64,000 nucleotides of DNA from Edaphobacter aggregans (GCA_022736715.1 DZDJ01000002.1:26149-90148); one strand, 5' to 3'; shown: positions 8,326 through 21,377, counted from the stretch's first letter. Notes: a model not told the origin generated them from the letters alone. Translations and numbers: made by a program.

Positions 8326-8400
8326 GGGCGCATAACTCAGCGGTAGAGTGCCACCTTCACACGGTGGAAGTCGTAGGTTCGAATCCTGCTGTGCCCACCA
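8326..8400 (+). tRNA. tRNA-Val (anticodon CAC)
   Basis: Cloverleaf folded by hand. Acceptor GGGCGCA/TGTGCCC, anticodon stem CCACC/GGTGG with loop TTCACAC, T-arm GTAGGTTCGAATCCTGC, encoded CCA at 8398-8400. Confidence 0.95.
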
Positions 8401-8953
8401 TAAAATCAATAATTTACAGGCATGAGTTCCGCAAAGTTTGTGGCATTTTGTGGCAAATCTGAGAGCGGCTGCTTTTCTTCCGCCTGTTCTCGCAATACTC
8501 CTTTCATCAACGATCAGCTATGCCGGGCCGATGCAGGTTGCGGTGCGGAGCGGCTTCCGCGTCGACATAAAGAAAGCAGTATGTCTGAACTGTAAACAGT
8601 AAGGGAGGAACAGGAAAAAGCTGTTTTCCGTTCTCGCCTACAGATCAGACCTGCATACATGGAATTCAGGCTGCCATGCCTGTTTCAATAGATTCGATAT
8701 TTCAGCCACTGACTGGCCAGAATCACAGTAGATCGTTTCTCAGCTCAACACAGAATCTCTCCTGTTCGTATGCCGCCGGATCGCGGACTCTTTGCTCATT
8801 ACCGTTACAGCATTCGCAGGTTTGGCCGGGCCGCAAAGGGTCGTCGCCTGGGCGGAGTTTTAGAAATTGAAGGAAATTCAGCAGATCGAACAGATTTTGC
8901 AAGAATGCCTTGCGGGAATTTGGGAATCTGGTACTGTGGACTATCCAGATGCT

Positions 8954-9325
8954 ATGGAGAACGATCGGTACATAACGTTGGTCGTGCTTCTTGTTGGAGC
9001 CGTTGCCTTTGCCGTGGCCCCATTAGCTCTGGCTTGGCTATGGGCGCGGGTATTTTCACCATCGAAGCCCGGCCCAGAGAAAAATGCCATTTATGAATGC
9101 GGTTTGGAATCTACAGGGGATGCCTGGATTCAGTTTCAACCAGGCTATTACCTATACGCCATTGTCTTCCTCGTTTTTGATGTCGAAGCTATTTTCTTGC
9201 TTCCTATGGCAGTCGCATTCAAGGGGCTTTCTGTCCAGGAATGTGTGGCAGCGCTGGTCTTTCTTCTGTTGCTGGTAGAGGGGTTACTGTGGGCCTACCA
9301 GAAAAAGGTATTTGATTGGTCATAA
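8954..9325 (+). CDS. nuoA: NADH-quinone oxidoreductase subunit A
   Basis: 3-TM ORF with the [10 protein letters not shown]...[13 protein letters not shown] motif of NuoA/ND3. ATG 8954 is preferred to TTG 8867. Confidence 0.9.
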
Positions 9326-9383
9326 AGAAGAATGGTCTGTTTTGTGGTTGACTCTGAAAACTGGGATGCGAGGTGTTCGTGGT

Positions 9384-10025
9384 ATGGAGGAACAACTCAA
9401 ACAGGAACTAGGCAAGCAGGGAATTTTCGTTACAACGCTGCAGAGCCTTTATAACTGGGGCCGTAAAAATTCCTTATGGCCACTCAATTTCGGCCTGGCT
9501 TGTTGTGCCATAGAAATGATCGCTTCGACGATGGCGCGCTACGATCTGGCGCGGTTTGGCGCAGAAGTTTTTCGGGCCTCTCCGCGACAAGCGGACCTGA
9601 TGATCGTCGCAGGGACTATCACCAAGAAAATGGCCCCGCAGGTGGTACGCCTCTATAACCAGATGCCAGAGCCAAAATATGTTATTTCGATGGGGGCGTG
9701 TGCTATTTCCGGCGGACCTTTCAAGCAGGGATATAACGTACTCAAGGGAATTGATCGCTACATTCCGGTGGATATTTATATTCCTGGCTGCCCGCCCCGG
9801 CCAGAGGCATTGATTGATGCACTGATGGCCCTGCAGCGTAAGATCGATGCGCAGCATCTGACTGGTAAAAGTAGACCACGGCACCTGAAAGCCGATGAAC
9901 CAAGTGAATTTCCAGTGCCAAAATTTGGCGAGCACGATCTGGAGCCGCCGCAAAACCCGGCTATATGGCACCCCCCTTTAGTGCAGATCAAACTGGCAGG
10001 CAAACATGAATCTGGAAGCGATTAA
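9384..10025 (+). CDS. nuoB: NADH-quinone oxidoreductase subunit B
   Basis: [25 protein letters not shown] and IPGCPPRPE carry the N2-cluster Cys ligands. A ~60-aa C-terminal tail extends beyond the conserved core. Confidence 0.9.
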
Positions 10026-10638
10026 AGCTGCGCTGGAATCAGAAGTTTCTGGCTGCCGCGTAGAAATCGTACAGAACGGCAGCCCCTCAGCGCAGCACTC
10101 CTTGTTGATGGCGCCGGAGCACGCATTGGATATTGCCCTGCACCTGCGCGATGCGGAAATGTTCTGCTTCGATTATTGTTCGAACGTTACAGGGATTGAC
10201 TGGCCCGGCAGGGAGATCACGGAAAAAATTAAAGTTAGGCACATCGTGGATGGCGTGGAGCAGGAGGTGGAAGAGAGTCGAAAGCGGGAATCTCCCGCCT
10301 ATTTGGAGGCCGTATACCACCTGTACTCCACACAACGGCGCATTGGCCCATTGATTCTTCGTGTGCGCACAACGAACAGAACAGATCAGGTTCATTTACC
10401 GTCGTTGACCGCTGTATGGCGCAGCGCAGAATTTCAGGAACGCGAAATTTTTGATCTCTTTGGAATTATTTTTGATGGCCACCCGGATATGCGAAGGCTC
10501 CTGATGTGGGATGGTTTTATGGACCACCCCATGCGGAAGGACTACATCGAACCAGATGATTACGAGTATGAGCCCACCGCGCACGATGATGTATTAAAGA
10601 AAGCAAAAGTCCATCAAGGCGGACCCGGTTTGTTATGA
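10006..10638 (+). CDS. nuoC: NADH-quinone oxidoreductase subunit C
   Basis: 30-kDa subunit signature [27 protein letters not shown]. Overlaps nuoB by 20 nt. Confidence 0.88.
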
Positions 10639-11795
10639 CCCCTGTCACACTTCAAACTGCGCATCCGGCTCTACGCTCCTCTCACGACGGAGAAAGGGGC
10701 CACTTGATGGAAGTCTCCATGGGTCCGCAGCATCCCTCTACTCATGGTGTTTTTCGCATGGATGTAGTTTTGGAGGGGGAGCGGGTGATTGAACTGAAGC
10801 CTGTTTTTGGCTACCTGCACCGTAACCACGAGAAGATTGCTGAAAATGAGACTTATCTGGGATCGATGCCGTATACAGACCGCCTGGATTACCTATGTTC
10901 TCTTACCAATAACTGGGCATACGCTCTCACAGTGGAAAAGCTTGCGGACATACAGGTTCCAGAGCGGGCTGAGTACTTGCGAGTTATTACTGCTGAGCTT
11001 ACACGGTTGCAGAATCATGCAGGTCTTATTGGGTTCTTGCTGCAGGACATGGGAGCCAGCGCTACTCCATTGATGTACGCCTTCCGTGAACGCGAGAAGA
11101 TATTGGACTTATTTGAGGCTTTAACCGGGGCGCGCATGATGTGCAACTATATGCGCTTTGGCGGGTGTCGTGTTGATGCTCCTGCCGGGTGGATGGAGCA
11201 AGCACGGAAGATAGTGGATGCTTTCCCCCGTTTTTTGGACGAGTATGAACAGTTTTTGACTCGAAACGAAATTCTGATGGCCAGGACCCAAGGTGTCGGG
11301 GTACTCAGTAAAGACCTGGCCGTCAATGCTGGAATCACTGGCCCGATGGCTCGTGCTTCCGGGGTCAGTTACGACATACGAAAGGTGGACCGGTACGGAA
11401 TTTATGGCCGGTTTTCATTCAGCGTTCCATTGGGAGAGCACGGAGATGTTTACGACAGGTTTATGATCCGGCTTCTGGAGATGCGCGAATCAATCAAAAT
11501 TTTACAACAGGCGTTACGGGGCATTCCTGCTGGTCCTGTTATTGATCCGAAGGCAAAAATCCGGGGCTTTCGCCCGAAAGCTGGGGAGGCCTATGGGAGA
11601 ATAGAGTCGCCAAAAGGGGAACTTGGGTTCTACCTGATCAGTGACGGCGGTCCAAATCCATACCGCTATCGCGTTCGGCCCCCAAGCCTGATCAATCTAA
11701 CGGTGCTTGAGGACCTTTGTATTGGCCGCAGCATCGCAGATGTTGTTGTTGTTCTCGGAAGCATAGACATCGTTATGGGAGAAGCAGATCGTTAG
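10635..11795 (+). CDS. nuoD: NADH-quinone oxidoreductase subunit D
   Basis: [13 protein letters not shown] near the N-terminus and [10 protein letters not shown]...[12 protein letters not shown] at the C-terminus. ATGA overlap with nuoC. Confidence 0.92.
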
Positions 11796-11842
11796 ATGGA
11801 GCAGCGGCAGCTCATTGATCTCGTTTGTTTGGGGTGAAGAAC

Positions 11843-12418
11843 ATGCTGGGTGAAGGCATTGTGCGGGGAATGGTGGTAACAGCAAAAAACTTTTTGGGCA
11901 GCTTCGTGAACCGGGACAGGCTGACTACTATTCAGTTCCCGGAAGAACGACTGCCTCACATCGAAGCATCTCGTAATTTTCCATTCCTTGTTTATGATGG
12001 CGACGACTGGCAACAGGGAATGCGCTGTGTAGCGTGTCAGATTTGCGAAAAGGAGTGTCCTCCGAAGTGTATTTATATCGAAAAGAGCACTCAGAAAAAA
12101 GCAGATGCGGCTGGAAAGCCACAGTTTTACCCGGAAACTTTTAATATCGATGTCTCTGTTTGCATGAGTTGTCAGATATGTGTCGAAGTATGCCCGTTTG
12201 AGGCCATTAAGATGGACAACGAATTCGAATATAGTACCGAGAGCCGTTTTGATTTTCTGCTCTGGGACAAAAAGAAACTGTCGAAATCCAATGAATACTA
12301 CAGGAAAATACATCCGACCGAAGCTGCTCTTGTAGATGCACGGTTGCGGGAAGAGCGCGCCCGGATGGAAGCAAAAATGAGTAAAAGTTCTGCAATAAAA
12401 GCTGGTCCTGTACCGTGA
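11843..12418 (+). CDS. nuoI: NADH-quinone oxidoreductase subunit I (2x[4Fe-4S])
   Basis: Two ferredoxin motifs, CVACQICEKECP and CMSCQICVEVCP. Follows nuoD directly, with no nuoEFG between them. ATG 11843 chosen over TTG 11825. Confidence 0.9.
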   Translation: MLGEGIVRGMVVTAKNFLGSFVNRDRLTTIQFPEERLPHIEASRNFPFLVYDGDDWQQGMRCVACQICEKECPPKCIYIEKSTQKKADAAGKPQFYPETFNIDVSVCMSCQICVEVCPFEAIKMDNEFEYSTESRFDFLLWDKKKLSKSNEYYRKIHPTEAALVDARLREERARMEAKMSKSSAIKAGPVP

Positions 12419-12510
12419 TTAGCTCCTGAACGGGTTGCAGGCAGCGCATACACCTTGCTGGAAGTAGCAGTCCGCGAACAGATTGAGATGAGGTCATGAG
12501 GTAGATCAGC

Positions 12511-13686
12511 ATGGCGGAATTTGTCGATCAATTTTTTATACTTCTCAAGCACTGGATGCTGTCCCGTGTCCCCCCGGCTGGACAGCCAATTGTTTCTGCC
12601 CTTCTGTCTGTGGTCCCGGTTCTCATCGTGTTTCCCGCTTTGTTTGCATTCGTCACCGTTTTAGAACGGAAATGGCTGGGAAGAATTCAAAATCGTTATG
12701 GGCCCAATCGGGTAGGTCCTTATGGCCTGCTGCAGCCAATGGCAGACGCTATTAAAACATTGACAAAGGAAGCTGTCCTCCCACGCGGTGCAGATGGGAT
12801 CGCGCATTTGTCAGCACCAGTTCTGTTGGTAGTTGCGGCATTGATGGCATATGCAGTTTTACCAGTTGGACGCAATATGATCGTAGTTGATCTGAACTCT
12901 GGTGTTCTGTATTTCTTTGCAGTTGGTGCTCTGGTAGAGCTGGCCATTTTTATGGCCGGCTGGTCGGGACGCAACAAATACGCGTTGATTGGCGCAATGC
13001 GCGCCATCGCACAGATGATCAGCTATGAGGTCCCGTTGGTGCTTGCTTCAGTTGTCGTCGTCATGGCGGCAGGCACGCTCTCGACTGTTGGAATTGTAGA
13101 AGCACAGTCAGGATACTCCTACGGATGGCCCCATTGGTTTCTATTCACGCCATGGGGATTTGTAGGCTTTCTTTTATTCATGGTTGCGGCAACCGCTGAG
13201 GCAAACCGGTCACCTTTTGATCTGCCAGAAGGTGAATCTGAGATCATCGCTGGGTATTACACAGAGTATGCAGGATTTAAATTTGCATTGTTTTTTCTCG
13301 CAGAGTATCTCGGGATGTTTGCGACAACTGGTATGGCTGTAACACTGTTTCTCGGTGGATGGTCTGCTCCTGCCTCATTTCTTATATGGGTTCCAACGTA
13401 TATATGGTTTTTTGTGAAGCTGTTCATGTTGATAACGCTGTTCATCTGGATCAGAGGTACGTTGCCACGCTTGCGGATGGACCATCTCATGAAACTTGCA
13501 TGGAAAGTTTTGCTGCCACTGGCGCTATTCAATATCGCCTTGATGGCCATATGGAATTTTATTGTCATCGGAATAATTAGATGGGGGATTTGTTTACTCT
13601 TGTCGCTGGTCGTATTGATTTTCCTTCAAAGCTGGTTGGGACAAAGCAAAAGTTGGCGCCGTGAATACAAGTATTCGGAGGAATGA
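12511..13686 (+). CDS. nuoH: NADH-quinone oxidoreductase subunit H
   Basis: 8-TM ORF with GPYGLLQPMADAIK and PFDLPEGESEIIAGYYTEYAGFKF motifs of NuoH/ND1. Confidence 0.92.
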   Translation: MAEFVDQFFILLKHWMLSRVPPAGQPIVSALLSVVPVLIVFPALFAFVTVLERKWLGRIQNRYGPNRVGPYGLLQPMADAIKTLTKEAVLPRGADGIAHLSAPVLLVVAALMAYAVLPVGRNMIVVDLNSGVLYFFAVGALVELAIFMAGWSGRNKYALIGAMRAIAQMISYEVPLVLASVVVVMAAGTLSTVGIVEAQSGYSYGWPHWFLFTPWGFVGFLLFMVAATAEANRSPFDLPEGESEIIAGYYTEYAGFKFALFFLAEYLGMFATTGMAVTLFLGGWSAPASFLIWVPTYIWFFVKLFMLITLFIWIRGTLPRLRMDHLMKLAWKVLLPLALFNIALMAIWNFIVIGIIRWGICLLLSLVVLIFLQSWLGQSKSWRREYKYSEE

Positions 13687-13793
13687 TGGCTGATTTAAAT
13701 AGTAAATAATGATTGGCTGCCTATGATCCAATGGCCATCTACAAGGGCCTCATTTCTCATTTGTTGCGGTAAATCGTTGGAAACGAAAATTCT

Positions 13794-14306
13794 ATGGACT
13801 TCAATTTTTTTGTTGTTGCGATACTGACCATTCTTGGCATGGCCGGAGCAATAAGCTTCCGAAATTTGATCCATTGCATCATGTCACTCATGCTCGGCTT
13901 CCTTGGGCTTGCAGGGTTGTATCTAAAGTTGGGGGCACAATTTGTTGGCTTTGTTCAGATACTCGTGTATTTAGGCGCGATAGGGGTTCTTTTCGCTTTT
14001 GTTGTAATGATGACCCGAAGCCGGAATGAGCGGTCTGATTTTCACTTGAAAAGAACCAGGTTTTTTACGTATACATCCGTGGCCGTTCTTGGGACGGCAA
14101 TGTTGTGGGGCATCTATGGGAGCAGATATTTATTTGCAAAGGCCTCCTGTAGCTTTCAACTTGATGTAAATGAGCTTGGGATCGGGCTTCTGAGAAATAC
14201 CGTCCTGCCTTTAGAAATAGGAGCATTGCTGTTAACGGCATCGCTGATAGGAGCTGTATGTATTGCAATATCGGAATTGGGTGGGCCTGATGGGAAATCC
14301 GAGTAG
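13794..14306 (+). CDS. nuoJ: NADH-quinone oxidoreductase subunit J
   Basis: 170-aa ND6-like membrane ORF in the expected operon position (FVQILVYLGAIGVLFAFVVMM). Confidence 0.85.
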   Translation: MDFNFFVVAILTILGMAGAISFRNLIHCIMSLMLGFLGLAGLYLKLGAQFVGFVQILVYLGAIGVLFAFVVMMTRSRNERSDFHLKRTRFFTYTSVAVLGTAMLWGIYGSRYLFAKASCSFQLDVNELGIGLLRNTVLPLEIGALLLTASLIGAVCIAISELGGPDGKSE

Positions 14307-14601
14307 TTATTTAGTAGTTTCAGCAGCGTTATTTGTAATTGGGCTATTGGGAGTATTGATGCGTAGAAGCGCCATTGTGGTGCTTGTTGGGGTCGAGTTG
14401 ATGTTGGCTGCAGCTAATCTTAATTTCATCGCATTTTGGAGTTATGGGCCACACCCGGAAGCATTGATTGGAGTGACTTTCGTTCTTTTCGCAATTGGCA
14501 TTGCGGCAGCCGAGGCTGCAGTGGGTCTGGGTATTATTTTATTTGCGAATCGTGTATTCAGGACGATCGATTTGCCTGAAATCCGTTCACTGAAGTGGTA
14601 A
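14290..14601 (+). CDS. nuoK: NADH-quinone oxidoreductase subunit K
   Basis: ~100-aa 3-TM ORF with GVELMLAAANLNF and AAAEAAVGLGI motifs of NuoK/ND4L. ATG 14290 overlaps the nuoJ end. Confidence 0.88.
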   Translation: MGNPSSYLVVSAALFVIGLLGVLMRRSAIVVLVGVELMLAAANLNFIAFWSYGPHPEALIGVTFVLFAIGIAAAEAAVGLGIILFANRVFRTIDLPEIRSLKW

Positions 14602-14676
14602 GTACATAAAATTAAAATGAATGTTCTGGGGTATAGAGCAATACCAGATTGTGTTTTGTGATATTGCATAAGCTTT

Positions 14677-16755
14677 ATGGTTCGAATTATCAATATCGTT
14701 TGGTTGATTCCAGTGCTGCCAATAGCATCTTCTGGAGTGACCGCTTTGCTTGGGAGGCAAAAGCGGTTGTTGTCGGCATTGCTGGCGATTTCAATGATCG
14801 CTATTTCATTTCTGTTGTCTGCATTTATATTGGCGGCCGACCTGATATCCAACCAGCATTCTGGTATGACAAGGCTGGTGCGCAATATATGCTGGTTCCA
14901 GTTTGGGGAGGAGCCATTACGAGTTGGCTGGATAATAGATCCTTTAACCTCATTAATGTTGGTAATGGTAAGTACCGTCAGCTTACTTGTATTTATCTAC
15001 AGCACAAAATACATGAAAGAGGATGATAACTTCACTCGGTTTTTCTGCTTTCTGTCGCTCTTTTCCGGAGCAATGTTAGGTGTAGTGATTTCAAACAGCC
15101 TACTTCTTCTTTTTATGTTCTGGGAAGTAGTTGGCCTTTCGTCATATTTACTGATTGGGTTTTGGTTTTCCAGGCCAAGCGCCGTTGCTGCTGCACAAAA
15201 GGCGTTCCTGATAACCCGAATTGGCGATATAGCATTTTTTATTGGGATGGTATGGCTTTATGCCAAATCAGGGACGTTACTTTTCTATGACAATGGCGCT
15301 GGACTCCTGGAGCATACTGCCTTATCGAAGTTCTTGTTGTCAGGAGTTTCAATTGGAACAGCCGGGAATATCGGAATTGCACTGCTAATACTTTGTGGAG
15401 CTATTGGAAAATCGGGGCAGTTCCCTCTACATATATGGCTTCCGGATGCTATGGAAGGCCCCACACCGGTAAGCGCACTGATTCATGCAGCAACAATGGT
15501 AGCTGCTGGCGTGTTTCTGCTTGCTCGTCTATATCCAATTATGTCCGGCAGTGCAGCTGTTCCTGGAGTAGTTCCATCTTCGGTACCACTGCAGGCAATA
15601 ACATGGATCGGCGCATTGACAGCCCTTCTGGGCGCCCTTCTAGGGGTGGCGCAGTTTGATATTAAGCGGATTCTCGCATACTCAACGATCTCACAACTCG
15701 GTTATATGATGCTTGGCTTGGGTACCGGTGGGGTTGCCGTCGGCATGTTTCACCTGATCACACACGCTTTTTTCAAGGCACTGCTTTTTCTGGGCGCAGG
15801 TTCAGTTATTCATGGATGTTCTGGAGAGCAGGATATTCGATACATGGGTGGACTGCGCAAGAAAATGCCAGCAACTTTTATAACGTATACCGTCGGTGCG
15901 ATGGCTCTTTGTGGGGTCCCATTCTGTTTTTCCGGGTTCTGGAGCAAAGACGCCATCCTGCATGCGGCAAAACAGTGGGACGTCTCCATGGTCCCTTTCT
16001 ACATGGGATCAGTAGGCGTTGCCTTAACTGCTTTTTATATGATGCGCCAGATTTTATACGTTTTTGCAGGCGAATCGCGTCTTTACTCCGCGCCGCACGC
16101 TGAGAAACACCATCTCCACAGCCAACATGAGAGCCACCCTCTAATGACAGTACCACTTGTTGTTCTGGCTATTTTTGCTGTCTTTTTGGGGTTTATAGGG
16201 ACTCCCGCCTGGCCATGGCTTCAATATTTTCTGGATGGACAGAGAGCGACAATACAATTTTCAGCCTTGGCGGAAGGCGGCTTTGTTCGGGTGATGTTGT
16301 CATCGTCCCTGCTGCTGATTGTTGGCGTTACTTTGGCGTGGTTGTTGTACTGGTATAAGCGGGGCCTGAATTCAGATGGGCGTGACAATTTAGAAGTATT
16401 GCTGCCAAGGACGTTTTCGTGGCTGGCTCATGGGCTGTATATCGAAACTGCATATGATGTAAGCGTTATTCGGCTAAATAGAATTGCTTCTGGTTTATGT
16501 AAGTGGGTCGATCAAAATATATTTTGTGGGATTTCTACATTAGCGGCCTATGTAGCAGTAGTAACAGGAAGAACTGTCAGCATAAACGATCAAAAGGTTT
16601 TCAACTCCGGCTTTGACACAGGATGCCGCCGGACCTCTGGGGCAGGGCGCGCATTGTCACAATTACAAAGCGGAACAGTGCAAGACTATTTGCGATGGCT
16701 CGTTGTTGCCTTTATATGTATTTTTATATTTATGGTGTGGGGAACTGGTAAATGA
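14677..16755 (+). CDS. nuoL: NADH-quinone oxidoreductase subunit L (elongated, 692 aa)
   Basis: LHIWLPDAMEGPTPVSALIHAATMVAAGVFL is the NuoL/ND5 signature. Long C-terminal region with a putative lateral helix and a final TM anchor (YLRWLVVAFICIFIFMVW). Confidence 0.92.
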   Translation: MVRIINIVWLIPVLPIASSGVTALLGRQKRLLSALLAISMIAISFLLSAFILAADLISNQHSGMTRLVRNICWFQFGEEPLRVGWIIDPLTSLMLVMVSTVSLLVFIYSTKYMKEDDNFTRFFCFLSLFSGAMLGVVISNSLLLLFMFWEVVGLSSYLLIGFWFSRPSAVAAAQKAFLITRIGDIAFFIGMVWLYAKSGTLLFYDNGAGLLEHTALSKFLLSGVSIGTAGNIGIALLILCGAIGKSGQFPLHIWLPDAMEGPTPVSALIHAATMVAAGVFLLARLYPIMSGSAAVPGVVPSSVPLQAITWIGALTALLGALLGVAQFDIKRILAYSTISQLGYMMLGLGTGGVAVGMFHLITHAFFKALLFLGAGSVIHGCSGEQDIRYMGGLRKKMPATFITYTVGAMALCGVPFCFSGFWSKDAILHAAKQWDVSMVPFYMGSVGVALTAFYMMRQILYVFAGESRLYSAPHAEKHHLHSQHESHPLMTVPLVVLAIFAVFLGFIGTPAWPWLQYFLDGQRATIQFSALAEGGFVRVMLSSSLLLIVGVTLAWLLYWYKRGLNSDGRDNLEVLLPRTFSWLAHGLYIETAYDVSVIRLNRIASGLCKWVDQNIFCGISTLAAYVAVVTGRTVSINDQKVFNSGFDTGCRRTSGAGRALSQLQSGTVQDYLRWLVVAFICIFIFMVWGTGK

Positions 16756-18302
16756 TGGCACTCCCATGGCTCTCCATATTGACTGCATTACCTGCAATAT
16801 TTGCGGTTGTTATATTGCTACTGCCCAGTGGTGATGCAAAAAGAATACAGCGCGTTGCCCTAGTTTTTAGCTGCTTTTTACAGATAATAACCTTGATCCT
16901 GCTGTTCGGATTTAATAGAAACGAAGGCGGGATCCAGTTCCAGGAGTTGCATTCCTGGGCAGATGCAATCGGCTTGCAATATCACTTGGGAATCGATGGA
17001 ATTGGGCTGGTGATGCTTCTTCTTTCAGCCATGGTATTTCTAATTGGGACCGTGGCCTCCTGGAACATACAGCAGCGCGCCCCAGTTTATTTCTCCCTTG
17101 TTTTTTTCTTGCAGTCTTGCCTGGTGGGATCCTTTACGGCCCTGAATTTATTTCATTGGTTCATTTTTTGGGAGTTGAGCCTGGTCCCTGCTTTTTTTCT
17201 TATTCGTTTGTGGGGAGGCACAGGAAGAACATCTGCCTCTATACAGTTCCTGGTCTATTCACTGATTGGCAGTATCGCCATGCTTGTGTCCCTTGTTGCC
17301 ATATTTGTGGTAACTCAAAAGAGCGATTTTATTGAGCTTGCAAACTATGCACATAGTGCAAACATACTGCATGTAGTAACTACAGCAACACATTGGAAGC
17401 TGCTTTCACCGGCTGCATTATCACTGTTGATATTTGCGGGAGTATTTGTAGGCCTGGCTGTAAAAGTACCACTGGTCCCGTTTCATGGATGGCTTCCTGC
17501 TGCATATACTGAATCTCCAACAGGTACAACCATTCTTTTGACAGGAGCTATGTCAAAAATGGGTCTTTATGGGTTTCTTAGAATTTTACTTCCGCTATTT
17601 GTTCCGGAGATAAAGTTGCTGCTGACACCGCTTTTGTGGCTTGCTGTTATTACGACAATCTTGCCTGCGTATGTGGCCATCGTTCAGCGTGATTTAAAGC
17701 GGACATTTGCTTATTCCTCAATCAACCACCTTGGATACTGTTTCCTGGCGATGTTGGCGGTTGTCAAAGCTGTCCCCGGAAAACATCTCACAGCCCAATA
17801 TGCGGCATTGAGCGGTGTATTACTGCAGATATTCAATCACGCACTCACAGCAGCAGTAATATTTTTATTGATTGCATGGCTGGAAAAAAGAAGCGGTGGA
17901 GAGCGAGATATAGATAATTTTGGCGGGTTGCGCAAGCACATGCCCGTTTTCACTGGTCTGATGGGAATTGCTTTGTTCTCCTCTCTCGGCCTTCCTGGAC
18001 TCAATGGCTTTGTGGCAGAGTTTATGATCTTTAGCGGGTCATTCGTATCTGCCCCGTGGGAAACGGCATTTGCCTCGTTCGGACTTTTATTGACGGCCAT
18101 TTTTATTCTGAATGTTCTGCAGCGAGTTTTTTATGGCCCCACTAATGAAAGATGGAATGGGATGCGGGACTTGACTGTTTCAGAAAGATGGATTCTGGCG
18201 CCTGCTGTTGGATTGATGTTCATACTTGGAATTTATCCGCAGTTACTTCTGGGCATGACAAATAGTACAGTTATCCGGTTTGTACAAGAGATTCGATTCT
18301 GA
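16752..18302 (+). CDS. nuoM: NADH-quinone oxidoreductase subunit M-type antiporter-like subunit, copy 1 (divergent)
   Basis: ND4/NuoM-type ORF of 516 aa with FHGWLPAAYTESPTGTTILLTGAMSKMGLYGFLRI. ATGA overlap with nuoL. Confidence 0.88.
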   Translation: MMALPWLSILTALPAIFAVVILLLPSGDAKRIQRVALVFSCFLQIITLILLFGFNRNEGGIQFQELHSWADAIGLQYHLGIDGIGLVMLLLSAMVFLIGTVASWNIQQRAPVYFSLVFFLQSCLVGSFTALNLFHWFIFWELSLVPAFFLIRLWGGTGRTSASIQFLVYSLIGSIAMLVSLVAIFVVTQKSDFIELANYAHSANILHVVTTATHWKLLSPAALSLLIFAGVFVGLAVKVPLVPFHGWLPAAYTESPTGTTILLTGAMSKMGLYGFLRILLPLFVPEIKLLLTPLLWLAVITTILPAYVAIVQRDLKRTFAYSSINHLGYCFLAMLAVVKAVPGKHLTAQYAALSGVLLQIFNHALTAAVIFLLIAWLEKRSGGERDIDNFGGLRKHMPVFTGLMGIALFSSLGLPGLNGFVAEFMIFSGSFVSAPWETAFASFGLLLTAIFILNVLQRVFYGPTNERWNGMRDLTVSERWILAPAVGLMFILGIYPQLLLGMTNSTVIRFVQEIRF

Positions 18303-18327
18303 GACCAACTGCTTCGGTGAGCCAACA

Positions 18328-19839
18328 ATGCTTGGGTGGACCATATACATATCATTTACTGGCGCGTTTTGCCTTTTCGTGATGCCGCGCCGATTTAGTA
18401 CTGCTGCACGCATCGTGGCGCTGACCATTGCAGTGGCTTCACTGGCAATCGTCTTACTTGGCTTTGTGCGATATGGTGGTGGATCAATGCAGGCCATCGT
18501 TCGCCTCCCCTGGATTCCATCGTTGGGAATTGACTATTCGCTTTCTGTAGATGGAATCAGTCTTGTGTTGCTGCTGTTGACAAGTGTAATAGGGATTGCC
18601 GGCATCCTGTTTTCATGGAATGTTGACTATCGAACAAATGAATTTTTTGCTCTGTATCTTATTTTGATCGGTTGTACGTACGGCGTATTTCTGAGTTACG
18701 ACTTATTTCTCTTTTTTGTTTTCTATGAAATTGTTATTGTCCCTAAATATTTTCTTATTGCGGGATGGGGATCGACCCGACGTGAATATGGCGCCATGAA
18801 GCTGGCCCTCTATTCATTTACAGGCAGTGCAATGGTCTTGATCGGCTTAATTGCTGCCTATATAACATCTGGCGCAAAGTCGATGGCATTGAACCAGTTG
18901 GCCCAATATCCATTTTCATCACATTTTCAATTGTGGGCATTCCCATTGGTCTTTCTTGGCTTTGCAGTTCTCGCCGGATTGTGGCCATTTCATACATGGG
19001 CGCCAACCGGGCATGTTGCTGCGCCAACCTCTGCATCGATGTTGCTTGCAGGTGTAGTGATGAAACTTGGAGCCTATGGTTGCCTGCGGGTTGCAATGGT
19101 CTTGTTTCCTTTGGGGCTGGATCCGTGGGGATTTCATGTGCTGGGTATGGGATCATGGCGTGACGTGTTTGCACTCCTGGCAGTTGTTGGGATCATCTAT
19201 GGTGCACTGGTCGCCTTGGTTCAGCAGGATTTCAAGTTTGTTATTGGCTATTCCAGCATAAGTCATATGGGATTTGTCTTACTTGGTCTGATGACATTGA
19301 ATCAGATTGGGCTTACCGGTGCCGTCATCCAGATGTTTTCGCATGGGGTCTTGGCTGGACTGCTGTTTGCAATTGTAGGAAGAATGGTCTATGACCGTAC
19401 GCATACAAGAGAATTGCATTTACTGAATAGGATGGACCTCTATCGAGCGATTCCATTTGCAGCAATAATATTCGTACTTGCTGGAATGGCCAGCATGGGG
19501 CTCCCCGGATTTAGTGGCTTTATTGCAGAGTTGATGATTTTGATGGGTAGCTGGCGCTCATATCCACTTTTTGCCATCGGTATCGGGTTGGGCCTGATGG
19601 TAGGAGTTGCATATATCTGGCGCGCACTGCAAAAGGCCTTTTTTGCAGATCGGGAGCACGCTGAAGTTGTGCCGCACGAGCCGCTTGTCCCTATTACGCT
19701 TCCTGAGCGGGTTGGAGCACTTTTGCTGATCGGGTCAAGTATCTTTGTTGGAATCTACCCGCAAGTGTTTTTGCGAGTTATTCAGCCAGCGCTAAACTCC
19801 CCTTTATTTTCTGGATTACATAAAGGGAGCTGGCAATGA
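18328..19839 (+). CDS. nuoM: NADH-quinone oxidoreductase subunit M-type antiporter-like subunit, copy 2
   Basis: ND4/NuoM-type ORF of 503 aa with FHTWAPTGHVAAPTSASMLLAGVVMKLGAYGCLRV. ATG 18328 (MLGWTIY). Confidence 0.88.
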   Translation: MLGWTIYISFTGAFCLFVMPRRFSTAARIVALTIAVASLAIVLLGFVRYGGGSMQAIVRLPWIPSLGIDYSLSVDGISLVLLLLTSVIGIAGILFSWNVDYRTNEFFALYLILIGCTYGVFLSYDLFLFFVFYEIVIVPKYFLIAGWGSTRREYGAMKLALYSFTGSAMVLIGLIAAYITSGAKSMALNQLAQYPFSSHFQLWAFPLVFLGFAVLAGLWPFHTWAPTGHVAAPTSASMLLAGVVMKLGAYGCLRVAMVLFPLGLDPWGFHVLGMGSWRDVFALLAVVGIIYGALVALVQQDFKFVIGYSSISHMGFVLLGLMTLNQIGLTGAVIQMFSHGVLAGLLFAIVGRMVYDRTHTRELHLLNRMDLYRAIPFAAIIFVLAGMASMGLPGFSGFIAELMILMGSWRSYPLFAIGIGLGLMVGVAYIWRALQKAFFADREHAEVVPHEPLVPITLPERVGALLLIGSSIFVGIYPQVFLRVIQPALNSPLFSGLHKGSWQ

Positions 19840-21335
19840 ATTCTGTTAGTTACTGGGAGTTGTTACAACTAACCTGGCCGCAAGTGATCCTGGTGCTAAC
19901 TGCCTTTATGGTATTGACGCTGGATTTGACGTGGCTCCATAACATACAGCCCCGTAAGAGATTTATTTCTGCATCGATGATTGCTGCTGCTGGATGTGTT
20001 CTGGCATGGTTGCATCTGCTGGTGTGGCCTGCTTTTGGCAATTTTCTGGGAGGGGTGCTGATTGCGGACCCGCTCACAAGATTTGTCCAGATCGCACTAA
20101 TATCGCTGACTATAGTTTCGGTGCTGTTGTCCGCTCTATATACCCATACCCAACATTATGGGGAATATCTTTTACTGATCTTATTTGCGACTGTGGGGGC
20201 ACTTTTTCTAGTGGCCACACAGAACCTGCTTGTACTTTTTGTTTCTCTCGAACTGTTGAGCCTCTCGCTGTATGTCCTCACAGCCTTTGATAAAGGCAGC
20301 GCGCGTTCTGCAGAAGCGGCACTAAAATATTTTATATTTGGGGGAGTTTCAGCTGCTTTTTTGCTTTTCGGGTTCAGCCTGCTTTACGGGATTTCCAACT
20401 CGATCAATCTCAAAGAAATTGCCCAGGCGATTCATGGGCCGACTCTTCCCCCGTTGTTCATCATTGCGCTTGGGGCAACGGTGATTGGGCTTGGTTTTAA
20501 GGTGGCGGCCGTGCCATTTCATTTTTGGGCCCCGGATGTATATGAGGGCGCCCCAGTGGCAAGCGCCGCGATGATTGCTTCTATGTCCAAGGTGGCCAGT
20601 TTCTTTTTGCTCTTTCAATTCGTGGTGATTGGATTTGCCGGAGTGCAAGGGGATGCAGCCTGGAGGCATCTGCTTCCTGGTTGGACCCCCGTGCTGGCAG
20701 CCGCCGCAGTGCTTTCTATGTTACTGGGCAATCTTGTGGCGATTGTGCAGAGCAGTGTGCGAAGGCTGCTGGCATATTCTGCGATTGCACATGCGGGGTA
20801 TATGTTGCTTTCCGTAGTCGCTCACACGCAGCAGAGCCTTGCAGCGCTGCTTTATTATGTGGTGACTTATGCGCTGACAACCATAGGCGCTTTTGTGGTC
20901 GTGGCCGTAGTGCAGGAACAAGCAGGGAATGATGATCTGAAGAGTTTTTCTGGGCTAAGCCGGCGTGATCCAGTACTGGCAATGGGAATGGTTGTCTTTG
21001 TTCTGTCGCTGGCGGGGATTCCACCGTTTGCAGGGTTTTTTGCCAAGTTCTATTTATTTGTAGCTGTTCTCCATGCCACGCCGGGGTCCCTCGGTTTGCT
21101 GTGGCTGGTTATTCTGGCGACCGCAATGAGCGCAGTTTCTTTCTACTACTACCTTCAAGTGTTGAAGCGTGTTTATGTGATGGATGCGCCCGAGGAAGCA
21201 AGCAGCCGGTTGTGTGCTCCGCCGCTGATACGGCTGATCGTGCTCCTATTGGCAGGTGCGGTGGTGGTGTTGGGATGCGCACCTGAGCTGTTAGTCAGGC
21301 CAATCGAAATAGCCATTCAGTCGGCTGGCATGTGA
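19836..21335 (+). CDS. nuoN: NADH-quinone oxidoreductase subunit N
   Basis: ND2/NuoN-type ORF with FHFWAPDVYEGAPVASAAMIASMSKVASF. ATGA overlap with the preceding gene. Confidence 0.9.
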   Translation: MNSVSYWELLQLTWPQVILVLTAFMVLTLDLTWLHNIQPRKRFISASMIAAAGCVLAWLHLLVWPAFGNFLGGVLIADPLTRFVQIALISLTIVSVLLSALYTHTQHYGEYLLLILFATVGALFLVATQNLLVLFVSLELLSLSLYVLTAFDKGSARSAEAALKYFIFGGVSAAFLLFGFSLLYGISNSINLKEIAQAIHGPTLPPLFIIALGATVIGLGFKVAAVPFHFWAPDVYEGAPVASAAMIASMSKVASFFLLFQFVVIGFAGVQGDAAWRHLLPGWTPVLAAAAVLSMLLGNLVAIVQSSVRRLLAYSAIAHAGYMLLSVVAHTQQSLAALLYYVVTYALTTIGAFVVVAVVQEQAGNDDLKSFSGLSRRDPVLAMGMVVFVLSLAGIPPFAGFFAKFYLFVAVLHATPGSLGLLWLVILATAMSAVSFYYYLQVLKRVYVMDAPEEASSRLCAPPLIRLIVLLLAGAVVVLGCAPELLVRPIEIAIQSAGM

Positions 21336-21377
21336 GTGGAAGTGCGTGTTTACTTCCATCCACATCCCGCTCCGCCA

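What the first reader, a model, noticed from the sequence alone, without database searches (positions are those of the whole stretch)
8954..21335. Complex-I operon without nuoEFG, with a duplicated NuoM and an elongated NuoL (order A-B-C-D-I-H-J-K-L-M-M'-N)
Seen: twelve co-oriented genes with tight or overlapping junctions (ATGA overlaps at 10635, 16752, 19836). nuoD stops at 11795 and nuoI starts at 11843, leaving no room for NuoE/F/G, and nuoI precedes nuoH. Two full-length ND4/NuoM-type ORFs follow NuoL. Copy 1 has WLPAAYTESPTGTT, with Tyr where the canonical WLPxAHVEAPT has His. Copy 2 has WAPTGHVAAPTSAS, which is closer to canonical. NuoL is 692 aa, roughly 80 aa longer than the ~610-aa E. 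coli and T. thermophilus proteins as I remember them. The stretch between WVDQNIF and LQSGTVQDY (the lateral amphipathic helix region) is about 52 residues and looks internally duplicated (VDQNIFCGIS... / INDQKVFNSGF...). Established: complex I variants with a fourth antiporter-like subunit and a lengthened NuoL lateral helix have been described as '2M' complex I (Chadwick et al. 2018, ISME J, cited from memory). Inference: this is a 2M-type enzyme built on the 11-subunit core, and its electron-input module cannot be deduced from this window.
Basis: partly seen in the sequence, partly recalled or inferred. Interest (0 to 1): 0.6.

Follow-up and report, generated by a model that had tools for sequence, protein, structure and literature searches.

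The report
Four-pump "2M" complex I operon
This is an intact 12-gene operon for an already described "2M" variant of respiratory complex I, with a fourth proton-channel subunit, a lengthened NuoL clamp helix and no NADH-input module, in an acidobacterium that also has a normal complex I; it is an ordinary member of a known kind, although this copy looks horizontally acquired.

Summary
Twelve co-oriented intact genes, nuoA-B-C-D-I-H-J-K-L-M1-M2-N (8954-21335), lack nuoEFG and place nuoI before nuoH.

NuoL (692 aa) carries exactly 26 extra residues inside lateral helix HL. The segment is a tandem doubling of a 26-residue module, as in all seven other two-M operons in the 80-locus survey and three more two-M operons from the host's family.

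This meets the two published hallmarks of "2M complex I" (Chadwick et al. 2018, read only through citing papers). The type is already reported and transcribed in Acidobacterium capsulatum (PMC11636273). This scan has also noted the same kind in many other genomes.

Points added here:
- M1 and M2 are ancient paralogs (33% identity), not a recent duplication.
- M2, not M1, is the non-canonical copy. Its TM7 lysine (E. coli NuoM K234) is Leu, a trait conserved across a large NuoM lineage.
- The genome has a separate canonical 14-gene nuo operon holding its only nuoE, F and G.
- This copy is a compositional outlier (48% vs 59% GC), lies next to tRNA-Val, and is 9-11 points more diverged from relatives than the canonical operon. 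That indicates xenologous acquisition.

The electron donor remains inferred (ferredoxin most likely). Verdict: new member of a known kind, modest interest.

The parts
8326..8400 (+). tRNA-Val (CAC), immediately left of the low-GC block
   Evidence: ARAGORN. The same tRNA with the same ECF-sigma neighbours lies about 10 kb from the 2M operon in relative G117.
8954..9325 (+). nuoA (123 aa; public gene calls use the TTG at 8867, giving 152 aa)
   Evidence: PF00507, E = 2e-29. 69% identity over 123 aa to the 123-aa NuoA of L008.
9387..10025 (+). nuoB, with N2 cluster ligands intact (start codon approximate)
   Evidence: PF01058. The motifs [17 protein letters not shown] and GCPPRPEA align with E. 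coli NuoB.
10006..10638 (+). nuoC (separate from nuoD, not fused)
   Evidence: PF00329, E = 6.7e-35.
10635..11795 (+). nuoD
   Evidence: PF00346, E = 2.1e-93. NF004739 scores 435 bits, above its cut-off of 360.
11843..12418 (+). nuoI, placed before nuoH; two CxxCxxCxxxCP motifs and a basic C-terminal tail
   Evidence: Fer4 families; TIGR01971 NuoI is the best NCBIfam hit but scores 78.2 bits, below its cut-off of 113. Motifs CVACQICEKECP and CMSCQICVEVCP. The I-H order is shared by L008, G092 and G117.
12511..13686 (+). nuoH
   Evidence: PF00146, E = 2.2e-111. NF004741 scores 327.5 bits, above its cut-off of 305.
13794..14306 (+). nuoJ
   Evidence: PF00499.
14290..14601 (+). nuoK (start uncertain; public calls give 80 or 112 aa)
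   Evidence: PF00420; gene calls.
14677..16755 (+). nuoL, 692 aa, with canonical channel residues E150, D184, K245, H359, H363, K367, K424, D425
   Evidence: NF005141, 599.8 bits. Residues mapped against E. coli NuoL. AlphaFold2 model with pLDDT 85.6. The best solved relative is cyanobacterial NdhF1.
16510..16665 (+). Doubled HL module of NuoL: two tandem 26-residue units (D612-N637 and D638-L663). One unit, 26 residues, is extra relative to canonical NuoL.
   Evidence: MAFFT alignments. Repeat test z = 2.84. The unit start aligns with the E. coli NuoL D563-P564-L565-N566 kink, which contacts NuoM (PMC3274701).
16752..18302 (+). nuoM1, 516 aa, with all canonical NuoM residues (E141, K238, K269, H326, H363, E423); Tyr in WLPxAY as in NuoN
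   Evidence: TIGR01972, 433 bits. Residue table. Forms a separate deep clade with the acidobacterial M1 copies.
18325..19839 (+). nuoM2, 504 aa: E135, K247, H314, H340 and E402 are kept. The TM7 Lys is replaced by Leu216 (codon 18970-18972), and there is an extra TM5 Lys141 (codon 18745-18747).
   Evidence: TIGR01972, 423 bits. Residue table. Nested in the TM7-Leu NuoM lineage. The start at 18325 is supported by representative P0121, whose residues 1-503 align to query residues 2-499.
19836..21335 (+). nuoN, 499 aa, with canonical E139, K222, K252, K404
   Evidence: TIGR01770, 377.5 bits. Residues.
8401..21377 (.). Low-GC block: 48.1% GC in the operon against 58.8% for the genome
   Evidence: Composition. 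Both junctions are reproduced in independent assemblies.

Best explanation
The operon encodes a complete, probably functional 2M-type complex I. It has a quinone-reducing Q-module (NuoB, C, D, I), a membrane arm of NuoH, A, J and K, and four antiporter-like subunits, probably arranged as in gene order L-M1-M2-N. The arm is braced by a NuoL lateral helix lengthened by one extra copy of its 26-residue docking module. That is about 39 A as alpha-helix, roughly the width of one added subunit.

The operon has no NADH-input module of its own. The most likely redox partner is a low-potential carrier, ferredoxin, docking directly on the NuoI/B/D surface. The extra channel would let the enzyme couple that larger redox span to one more translocated proton, or run in reverse.

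The host is an Acidobacteriaceae-type bacterium. It keeps a separate canonical 14-subunit NADH-dependent complex I. It appears to have received this copy of the 2M operon by horizontal transfer from a lower-GC carrier of the same acidobacterial operon type.

Shown: gene content, intact cofactor and channel residues, the position and repeat nature of the HL insertion, the composition anomaly and the excess divergence.
Inferred: physical incorporation of M2, subunit order, proton stoichiometry and the identity of the electron donor.
For: Gene assignment and order.

HL insertion:
- Exactly 26 residues are inserted relative to E. coli NuoL and to the genome's own canonical NuoL.
- Across the 80-locus survey the HL span is 26 or 52-54 residues. 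It is 52-54 in the window and in all seven two-M operons of the survey. Three further family operons show the same doubling.
- The segment is a tandem repeat.
- The AlphaFold2 model built on a 79-sequence alignment (pLDDT 85.6) gives helix 586-641, a kink, helix 647-663, then TM16.
- The unit start aligns with the E. coli HL kink that contacts NuoM.

Cofactor and channel residues: N2 and the 2x[4Fe-4S] ligands are intact. Channel residues are intact in L, M1 and N. M2 keeps five of six, and its Leu is lineage-wide.

Electron input:
- No second nuoE, F or G, and no NdhS, FpoF or flavodoxin in the genome.
- One 2-oxoacid:ferredoxin oxidoreductase homolog is present.

Literature:
- Definition of 2M complex I and the ferredoxin hypothesis (PMC6606698, PMC9040806, PMC12342949).
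- Transcription of the duplicated-nuoM complex in Acidobacterium capsulatum (PMC11636273).

Horizontal transfer:
- GC 48.1% against 58.8%, in the lowest 0.3% of 12.4-kb windows.
- GC3 41-57% against 66-79% in the canonical operon.
- Other 2M operons match their flanks in GC.
- tRNA-Val is adjacent.
- 2M subunits are 9-11.5 points more diverged than canonical ones against three relatives. The same difference among those relatives is -1 to +2.6.
- Both junctions are reproduced in other assemblies.
Against: - No biochemical or structural data exist for any 2M complex. No solved structure has an extended HL or an M2-like subunit.
- pLDDT within the inserted unit is only 47-62, and no multimer model could be made.
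- About a dozen related operons have the doubled HL with only one adjacent nuoM (also PMC9040806). A longer HL therefore does not by itself prove a fourth subunit.
- M2 lacks the TM7 lysine, which I recall from memory (Torres-Bacete 2007, Euro 2008; not checked here) is essential in E. coli NuoM. M2 may not pump in the canonical way.
- The ferredoxin assignment rests only on the absence of alternatives.
- For transfer: no integrase, att repeats or empty site were found. Relative G117 has its native 2M operon near the same tRNA-Val/ECF-sigma block, so the locus itself may be ancestral.
Confidence: 0.8

Rival explanations
1. The 2M membrane and Q module borrows the NADH-input module NuoEFG from the canonical operon on contig C220. 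The enzyme would then be an NADH:quinone oxidoreductase with a fourth channel, not a ferredoxin-linked enzyme.
For: The genome has one set of nuoE, F and G. No dedicated alternative input protein was found. In Nitrospira moscoviensis, a separately encoded NuoF was suggested to interact with the 2M cluster (PMC6606698).
Against: The NuoB, D and I of the 2M operon come from a different lineage than the canonical ones: the 2M NuoL is most similar to cyanobacterial NdhF1 among solved structures, and only a minority of the related operons surveyed carry nuoEFG. An NADH-to-quinone span gives no obvious energetic room for a fifth proton; this is an argument from established bioenergetics, not tested here.
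Confidence: 0.15
2. M2 is part of the complex but is not a canonical proton pump. Without the TM7 lysine it would act as a spacer, a gated or altered-ion channel, or a coupling relay. The 2M complex would then not simply translocate one more proton.
For: Leu216 replaces the TM7 Lys in M2 of every two-M operon examined. An extra TM5 Lys (E+6) is present in the acidobacterial M2 copies and some Chloroflexota M2 copies, but not all.
Against: The same Leu, Ile or Phe occurs in the only NuoM of the Bacteroidota, Verrucomicrobiota and Armatimonadota operons surveyed, which presumably pump. M2 keeps the TM5 Glu, TM8 Lys, both His residues and the TM12 Glu.
Confidence: 0.2
3. The operon was inherited vertically within the family. 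Its low GC and extra divergence would reflect local accelerated evolution, not transfer.
For: Six of about 32 sampled genomes of the same family carry the same operon type. G117 has it within about 10 kb of the same tRNA-Val/ECF-sigma/orf171/DUF3106 block. No mobility genes or att repeats were found.
Against: A GC3 drop from about 72% to about 47% confined to 12 kb is not expected from in-place evolution. Every other 2M operon examined matches its flanks in GC. The excess divergence is specific to this genome's copy.
Confidence: 0.1
4. The low-GC block is an assembly or binning artefact: a chimeric contig joining DNA from two organisms.
For: The genome is a 349-contig MAG with 5.9% estimated contamination.
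Against: The block sits inside a 127.7-kb contig. The right junction is reproduced in five other assemblies and the left junction in one.
Confidence: 0.02

Closest known systems
2M complex I (Chadwick, Hemp, Fischer & Orphan 2018, ISME J 12:2668; read here only through citing papers PMC9040806, PMC6606698, PMC7117926, PMC12342949)
   Same: A second NuoM-type subunit is encoded between nuoL and nuoN. There is a 26-residue insertion in the NuoL amphipathic helix HL. Many members lack nuoE/F. The proposed role is a fifth translocated proton, or reverse electron flow to ferredoxin.
   Different: The Nitrospira clade-3 operon is reported to contain an enlarged nuoG homolog (PMC6606698), whereas this operon has no nuoG at all. 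Chloroflexota 2M operons show only A-H-(J)-K upstream of L in the DNA fetched, with nuoBCDI reported elsewhere (PMC7117926), whereas here all 12 genes are contiguous with nuoI before nuoH. Clade assignment could not be made.
The 'unusual complex I with duplicated nuoM' of Acidobacterium capsulatum 161 (PMC11636273)
   Same: Same phylum and, judging by labels, the same family-level group. It coexists with a canonical nuoA-N operon and is transcribed, with nuoABC transcripts rising as oxygen falls.
   Different: That sequence was not compared directly here. The window's copy is only 52-60% (NuoL) and 65-72% (M2) identical to any other acidobacterial copy found, and it is compositionally foreign to its host.
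EFG-less (11-subunit) complex I of Bacteroidota and relatives, and cyanobacterial NDH-1L
   Same: No N-module. M2 nests within the NuoM lineage of these operons and shares their TM7 Lys-to-Leu change. NuoL is most similar, in sequence and in fold, to cyanobacterial NdhF1.
   Different: Those enzymes have one M and a single HL unit, and the gene order is H-I. No NdhS-type ferredoxin-docking subunit is present in this genome.
Complex_I_3 of Ca. Manganitrophaceae (five pumping subunits; Yu et al. 2022, PMC9040806)
   Same: It extends the membrane arm with extra antiporter-like subunits and a 26-residue HL insertion.
   Different: It uses two MrpD-like subunits in place of NuoL, for five pumps in total. 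Here there is a normal NuoL and four pumps.

Membership tests
2M complex I (Chadwick et al. 2018) | A second NuoM-type antiporter-like gene in the nuo cluster | tested here: met
   Two full-length ORFs between nuoL and nuoN both score best on TIGR01972 NDH_I_M, at 433 and 423 bits against a cut-off of 263.8.
2M complex I (Chadwick et al. 2018) | Insertion of about 26 residues in the NuoL lateral amphipathic helix HL | tested here: met
   Exactly 26 extra residues lie between conserved HL anchors, relative to E. coli NuoL and the genome's own canonical NuoL. The insertion is modelled as mostly helical, at low local confidence.
2M complex I (Chadwick et al. 2018) | Complete set of the other core subunits (A, B, C, D, H, I, J, K, N) with intact cofactor and channel residues | tested here: met
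   Pfam and NCBIfam hits. N2 and 2x[4Fe-4S] ligands. Channel residues in L, M1 and N.
2M complex I (Chadwick et al. 2018) | Placement in one of the published 2M clades by phylogeny | not testable with these tools
   The paper is not held, and no Nitrospira or thaumarchaeal 2M sequences could be fetched. In my own tree, M2 groups with the Chloroflexota M2 copies (SH-aLRT 94).
2M complex I (Chadwick et al. 2018) | Fourth subunit physically incorporated, with a higher H+/e- stoichiometry | not testable with these tools
   This needs purification, cryo-EM and pumping assays. No solved homolog exists.
Nitrospira-type 'clade 3' 2M operon (as described in PMC6606698) | Lacks nuoE and nuoF but contains an enlarged nuoG homolog | tested here: not met
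   There is no NuoG-like ORF in or beside the operon. The genome's only NADH-G_4Fe-4S_3 match is in the canonical operon on C220.
Canonical 14-subunit complex I (Nuo14) | nuoE, nuoF and nuoG between nuoD and nuoH | tested here: not met
   nuoD ends at 11795 and nuoI starts at 11843. A separate canonical operon lies on C220:169256-183656.
Cyanobacterial or plastid NDH-1 | Oxygenic-photosynthesis-specific subunits such as NdhS for ferredoxin docking | tested here: not met
   PF11623 (NdhS) has no match in the genome, while the control in Synechococcus rings.

The most novel reading that the evidence does not exclude
The fourth module (M2) belongs to a large, unstudied NuoM lineage that works without the TM7 lysine. 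In the acidobacterial copies and some Chloroflexota copies, a lysine sits two turns below the TM5 glutamate instead. If that charge arrangement changes gating or ion specificity, 2M complexes, and the single-M EFG-less complexes of Bacteroidota, would use a proton-transfer pattern different from every solved complex I. The assumed 'one extra proton' for 2M enzymes would then need revisiting.
Probability: 0.2. Interest if true: 0.55.

Novelty: new member of a known kind. Interest (0 to 1): 0.3.

Why it matters
2M complexes are the proposed route by which some bacteria either gain an extra proton from low-potential donors or drive reverse electron flow to ferredoxin, yet none has been purified or solved. 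This locus adds little to that question on its own.

It does give three usable pointers:
- In two-M operons the lateral-helix lengthening is an exact duplication of a 26-residue docking module, each copy starting with a conserved Asp.
- The extra M comes from the NuoM lineage that lacks the TM7 lysine, which gives a defined residue pair to mutate (L216 and K141 in M2 numbering).
- The operon type can move between genomes as a self-contained 12-gene cassette. That fits an accessory bioenergetic module, not a core enzyme.

Tried and rejected
- The Chadwick 2018 paper is not held, so clade definitions come only from citing papers.
- The first AlphaFold2 run, on a 25-sequence alignment, gave pLDDT 54.6 and was discarded. 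The second, on 79 diverse sequences, was usable.
- The search for att-like direct repeats at the block ends found only chance-level matches.
- The empty-site test failed. In seven relatives the pdaD, CN-hydrolase and aguA cluster is conserved, but synteny breaks beyond aguA, so no empty site can be shown.
Junctions were checked through independent assemblies instead.
Its identities are void. Only the returned coordinates were used, and the comparison was redone with the true proteins.
- In one search my guessed coordinates for the canonical NuoB and NuoI were wrong. Those two rows were ignored, and E. coli served as the reference.
- The TM5 lysine index was off by one and was corrected (K141).
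- The promoter scan upstream of nuoA gave nothing above the shuffle expectation.
- Considered and rejected: a decaying duplicate (all 12 ORFs are intact and the Leu is lineage-wide), a hidden or fused nuoEFG (none found), and an assembly chimera (junctions are reproduced elsewhere).

Full report
**What is there.** On the + strand of the window, twelve intact ORFs run from 8954 to 21335. Pfam and NCBIfam identify them, in order, as NuoA, B, C, D, I, H, J, K, L, M, M, N.
- Both M copies score best on the NuoM model TIGR01972 (433 and 423 bits).
- The last gene scores best on NuoN (TIGR01770).
- NuoL scores 599.8 bits on NF005141, above that model's cut-off.
- Only 47 nt separate nuoD from nuoI, so nothing resembling nuoE, F or G lies inside the cluster.
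- The flanks hold unrelated genes. On the left are an ECF sigma factor, DUF3106 and an amino-acid permease. On the right are agmatine deiminase, a CN-hydrolase, pdaD and a glutamine synthetase.
- The three 4-nt start/stop overlaps follow from the coordinates.

**The NuoL extension.** I aligned the 692-aa NuoL with E. coli NuoL (fetched from NC_000913.3), with the canonical NuoL of the same genome (660 aa) and with relatives. The alignment shows one clean gap of exactly 26 residues in the canonical proteins. It lies inside helix HL, just before the conserved Q-x-G-x-x-x-x-Y motif that leads into TM16.

Of the 79 residues by which this NuoL exceeds E. coli NuoL, only these 26 are in HL. The rest are spread over the N-terminal part and the loops.

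Across 80 related loci fetched from public genomes, the HL span between two conserved anchors (D612 and Q664 here) is quantised:
- 26 residues in canonical, Bacteroidota-type and many other operons;
- 52-54 residues in the window and in all seven operons of the survey with two M genes (two Acidobacteria and five Chloroflexota);
- three further operons from the host's own family show the same doubling.

The 52-residue segment reads as two tandem 26-residue units, each starting with an Asp that is invariant in the close family (D612 and D638). In-register profile similarity is z = 2.84, p = 0.0036, best at offset 0. The repeat is plain in some relatives, for example DRIVVDGIVNG... / DKYLVDGAVNG... 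in L061.

The start of the unit aligns with the E. coli NuoL D563-P564-L565-N566 kink, which a mutagenesis study describes as the contact between the helix and NuoM (PMC3274701; alignment). The added length is therefore a second copy of the M-docking module.

As alpha-helix, 26 residues span about 39 A. From my recollection of solved structures, which I did not measure here, that is about the width of one antiporter-like subunit.

An AlphaFold2 model on a shallow alignment was useless (pLDDT 54.6). A model on a 79-sequence alignment reached pLDDT 85.6 and pTM 0.85. It gives:
- a continuous helix at 586-641;
- a short kink at 642-646;
- a helix at 647-663;
- TM16 at 668-691.

Confidence inside the inserted unit is low (47-62), so the helical state of the insert is supported but not settled. 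Foldseek finds no solved chain with such an extension, and the best match is cyanobacterial NdhF1.

**The two M subunits.** M1 and M2 are 33% identical to each other and 34% (M2) to the genome's canonical NuoM, so they are not a recent duplication. In a maximum-likelihood tree (quick search, SH-aLRT):
- All eight M2 copies form one group (support 94).
- That group is nested (support 99) within the single NuoM subunits of Bacteroidota, Verrucomicrobiota and Armatimonadota operons, most of which lack nuoEFG.
- The acidobacterial M1 copies form their own deep clade (support 99).
- The Chloroflexota M1 copies sit elsewhere.

Mapped onto E. coli numbering:
- M1 keeps every canonical residue (E144, K234, K265, H322, H348, E407 equivalents).
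- M2 keeps five of the six but has Leu216 in place of the TM7 lysine (K234).
- M2 also has an extra lysine six residues after the TM5 glutamate (K141, motif VPKYF).

The Leu is conserved in M2 of every two-M operon examined. It also occurs in the only NuoM of the Bacteroidota-type operons, and in about 30 of 113 diverse cluster representatives. It is a lineage trait, not decay.

The His-to-Tyr change in M1 (WLPxAY) is conserved among the acidobacterial M1 copies and matches the residue that NuoN has at that position. I found no paper that discusses the TM7-Leu lineage and no solved structure of such a subunit.

**Rest of the enzyme and the electron input.** The Q-module looks functional:
- NuoB keeps the N2 ligand motifs.
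- NuoI keeps both CxxCxxCxxxCP motifs.
- L and N keep their channel residues.

The genome is a 3.56-Mb MAG in 349 contigs. It holds a full canonical nuo operon on contig C220 (A to N, NuoL 660 aa), and that operon contains the only NuoE, NuoF and NuoG homologs. There is no NdhS, no FpoF/FrhB and no flavodoxin. One 2-oxoacid:ferredoxin oxidoreductase homolog is present.

The donor therefore cannot be read from the sequence. Ferredoxin docking directly on the Q-module is the most economical inference, and it matches what has been proposed for Nitrospira (PMC6606698, PMC12342949). Sharing of the canonical NuoEFG remains possible.

**Comparison with what is known.** The two hallmarks of 2M complex I are met: a second NuoM and a 26-residue HL insertion, as given in PMC9040806 and PMC6606698, which cite Chadwick et al. 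2018. The primary paper is not held.
- The type is already reported in Acidobacteria. Acidobacterium capsulatum transcribes an 'unusual complex I' with a duplicated nuoM beside its canonical one (PMC11636273).
- NuoL proteins of 685-708 aa of this type are abundant in Acidobacteriaceae metagenome bins.
- Unlike the Nitrospira operon described in PMC6606698, this one has no enlarged nuoG homolog.
- Chloroflexota 2M operons show only A-H-(J)-K upstream of L-M1-M2-N in the DNA fetched, with nuoBCDI reported elsewhere (PMC7117926). Here all 12 genes are contiguous.
- The I-before-H order is shared only by the acidobacterial operons (L008, G092, G117).
- This scan has noted the same kind of operon, and the lengthened NuoL helix, in many other genomes.

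**Origin of this copy.** The host is an Acidobacteriaceae-type bacterium. The flanking glutamine synthetase is 92% identical to one from an Acidobacteriaceae bin and 85-88% identical to Edaphobacter and Granulicella.

The operon is a compositional outlier:
- Its GC is 48.1% against 58.8% for the genome, within the lowest 0.3% of 12.4-kb windows.
- Its GC3 is 41-57%, against 66-79% in the canonical nuo operon.
- Other 2M operons (L007, L008, G003, G092, G117 and the Chloroflexota) match their flanks in GC.

Distribution in the phylum:
- Close M2 homologs (65-72% identity) were found only in the host's own family: 5 of 15 family genomes in a sample of 200 species from the phylum, and 0 of 185 elsewhere.
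- In a separate set of 30 relatives (18 of the same family, 12 of the same order), one genome had a close homolog.

- Between this genome and each of G117, G092 and G141, the 2M subunits are 9-11.5 identity points more diverged than the canonical subunits.
- Among those three relatives, the same difference is -1.0 to +2.6.

The junctions are not an assembly artefact. The right one recurs in five other assemblies and the left one in a second NCBI assembly.

Against a simple island model:
- There is no integrase, no att repeat and no demonstrable empty site.
- In G117 the native-GC operon lies about 10 kb from the same tRNA-Val, ECF-sigma, orf171 and DUF3106 block.

The locus may therefore be ancestral, with this copy a xenologous replacement. 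I rate acquisition from a lower-GC carrier of the same operon type as likely, but the donor is unsampled. The best NuoL identity anywhere in the database is 60%.

**Limits and errors.**
- No multimer model could be made, so subunit order and the docking of the two HL units are inferred.
- The query was mistyped by me and its identities are void. The comparison was redone correctly.
- Two comparison rows used wrong coordinates and were ignored.

**Verdict.** It is a new member of a known kind of complex I. The added details (M2 lineage and its Leu, the modular HL repeat, xenologous origin) raise it slightly above routine.

Noticed in passing
L011:9989-12214 (JAPKMR010000007.1, Anaerolineae MAG MO53): This NuoL of 741 aa has four tandem 26-residue HL units, yet only one nuoM and one nuoN lie next to it. 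Earlier notes of this scan report the same in other Anaerolineae.
   Followed up: partly
L010, L012, L014, L021, L040, L046, L047, L053, L061-L063, L068, L071: These loci have a doubled HL (52-54 residues). In the nine checked with tblastn that have an M gene in the fetched DNA, only one antiporter-like M gene lies adjacent on either strand. HL length therefore does not always track the number of adjacent nuoM genes. Yu et al. 2022 (PMC9040806) noted the same for some Manganitrophaceae complexes.
   Followed up: partly
L017, L022, L026, L031, L036-L039, L048-L050 and other Bacteroidota, Verrucomicrobiota and Armatimonadota loci: The single NuoM of these operons, most of which lack nuoEFG, has Leu, Ile or Phe where E. 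coli NuoM has the TM7 lysine K234. I found no paper discussing this.
   Followed up: partly
G000:C220:169256-183656 (- strand): A canonical 14-gene nuoA-N operon at genome-typical GC. It holds the genome's only nuoE, F and G.
   Followed up: yes
G000:C42:2556-9971 (- strand): A third complex-I-related cluster that resembles an Ehr-type (hydrogenase-related) complex. It has a NuoH-like gene, a HyfE-like gene, a 490-aa antiporter-like gene, a 540-aa NuoCD-like gene without NiFe cysteine motifs, a fused NuoI/NuoB-like gene and a 664-aa antiporter-like gene.
   Followed up: no
G117:C4, about 204000-236000 (L125 and L126): This relative has a native-GC 2M operon. About 10 kb beyond its nuoN, across a stretch of 52-55% GC, lies tRNA-Val(CAC) with ECF sigma, orf171 and DUF3106. 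These are the window's left-flank genes in the opposite arrangement.
   Followed up: partly
window 14677-14745: Some public gene calls start nuoL 23 codons late (669 aa, P0001 and the NCBI assembly). The 692-aa start is supported by alignment to NdhF1 from residue 6 and by the JGI and Logan calls.
   Followed up: yes
window 8401-8953: A 550-nt spacer separates tRNA-Val from nuoA, with no promoter-like site above the shuffle expectation. A terminator-like hairpin at 8429-8443 follows the tRNA.
   Followed up: no
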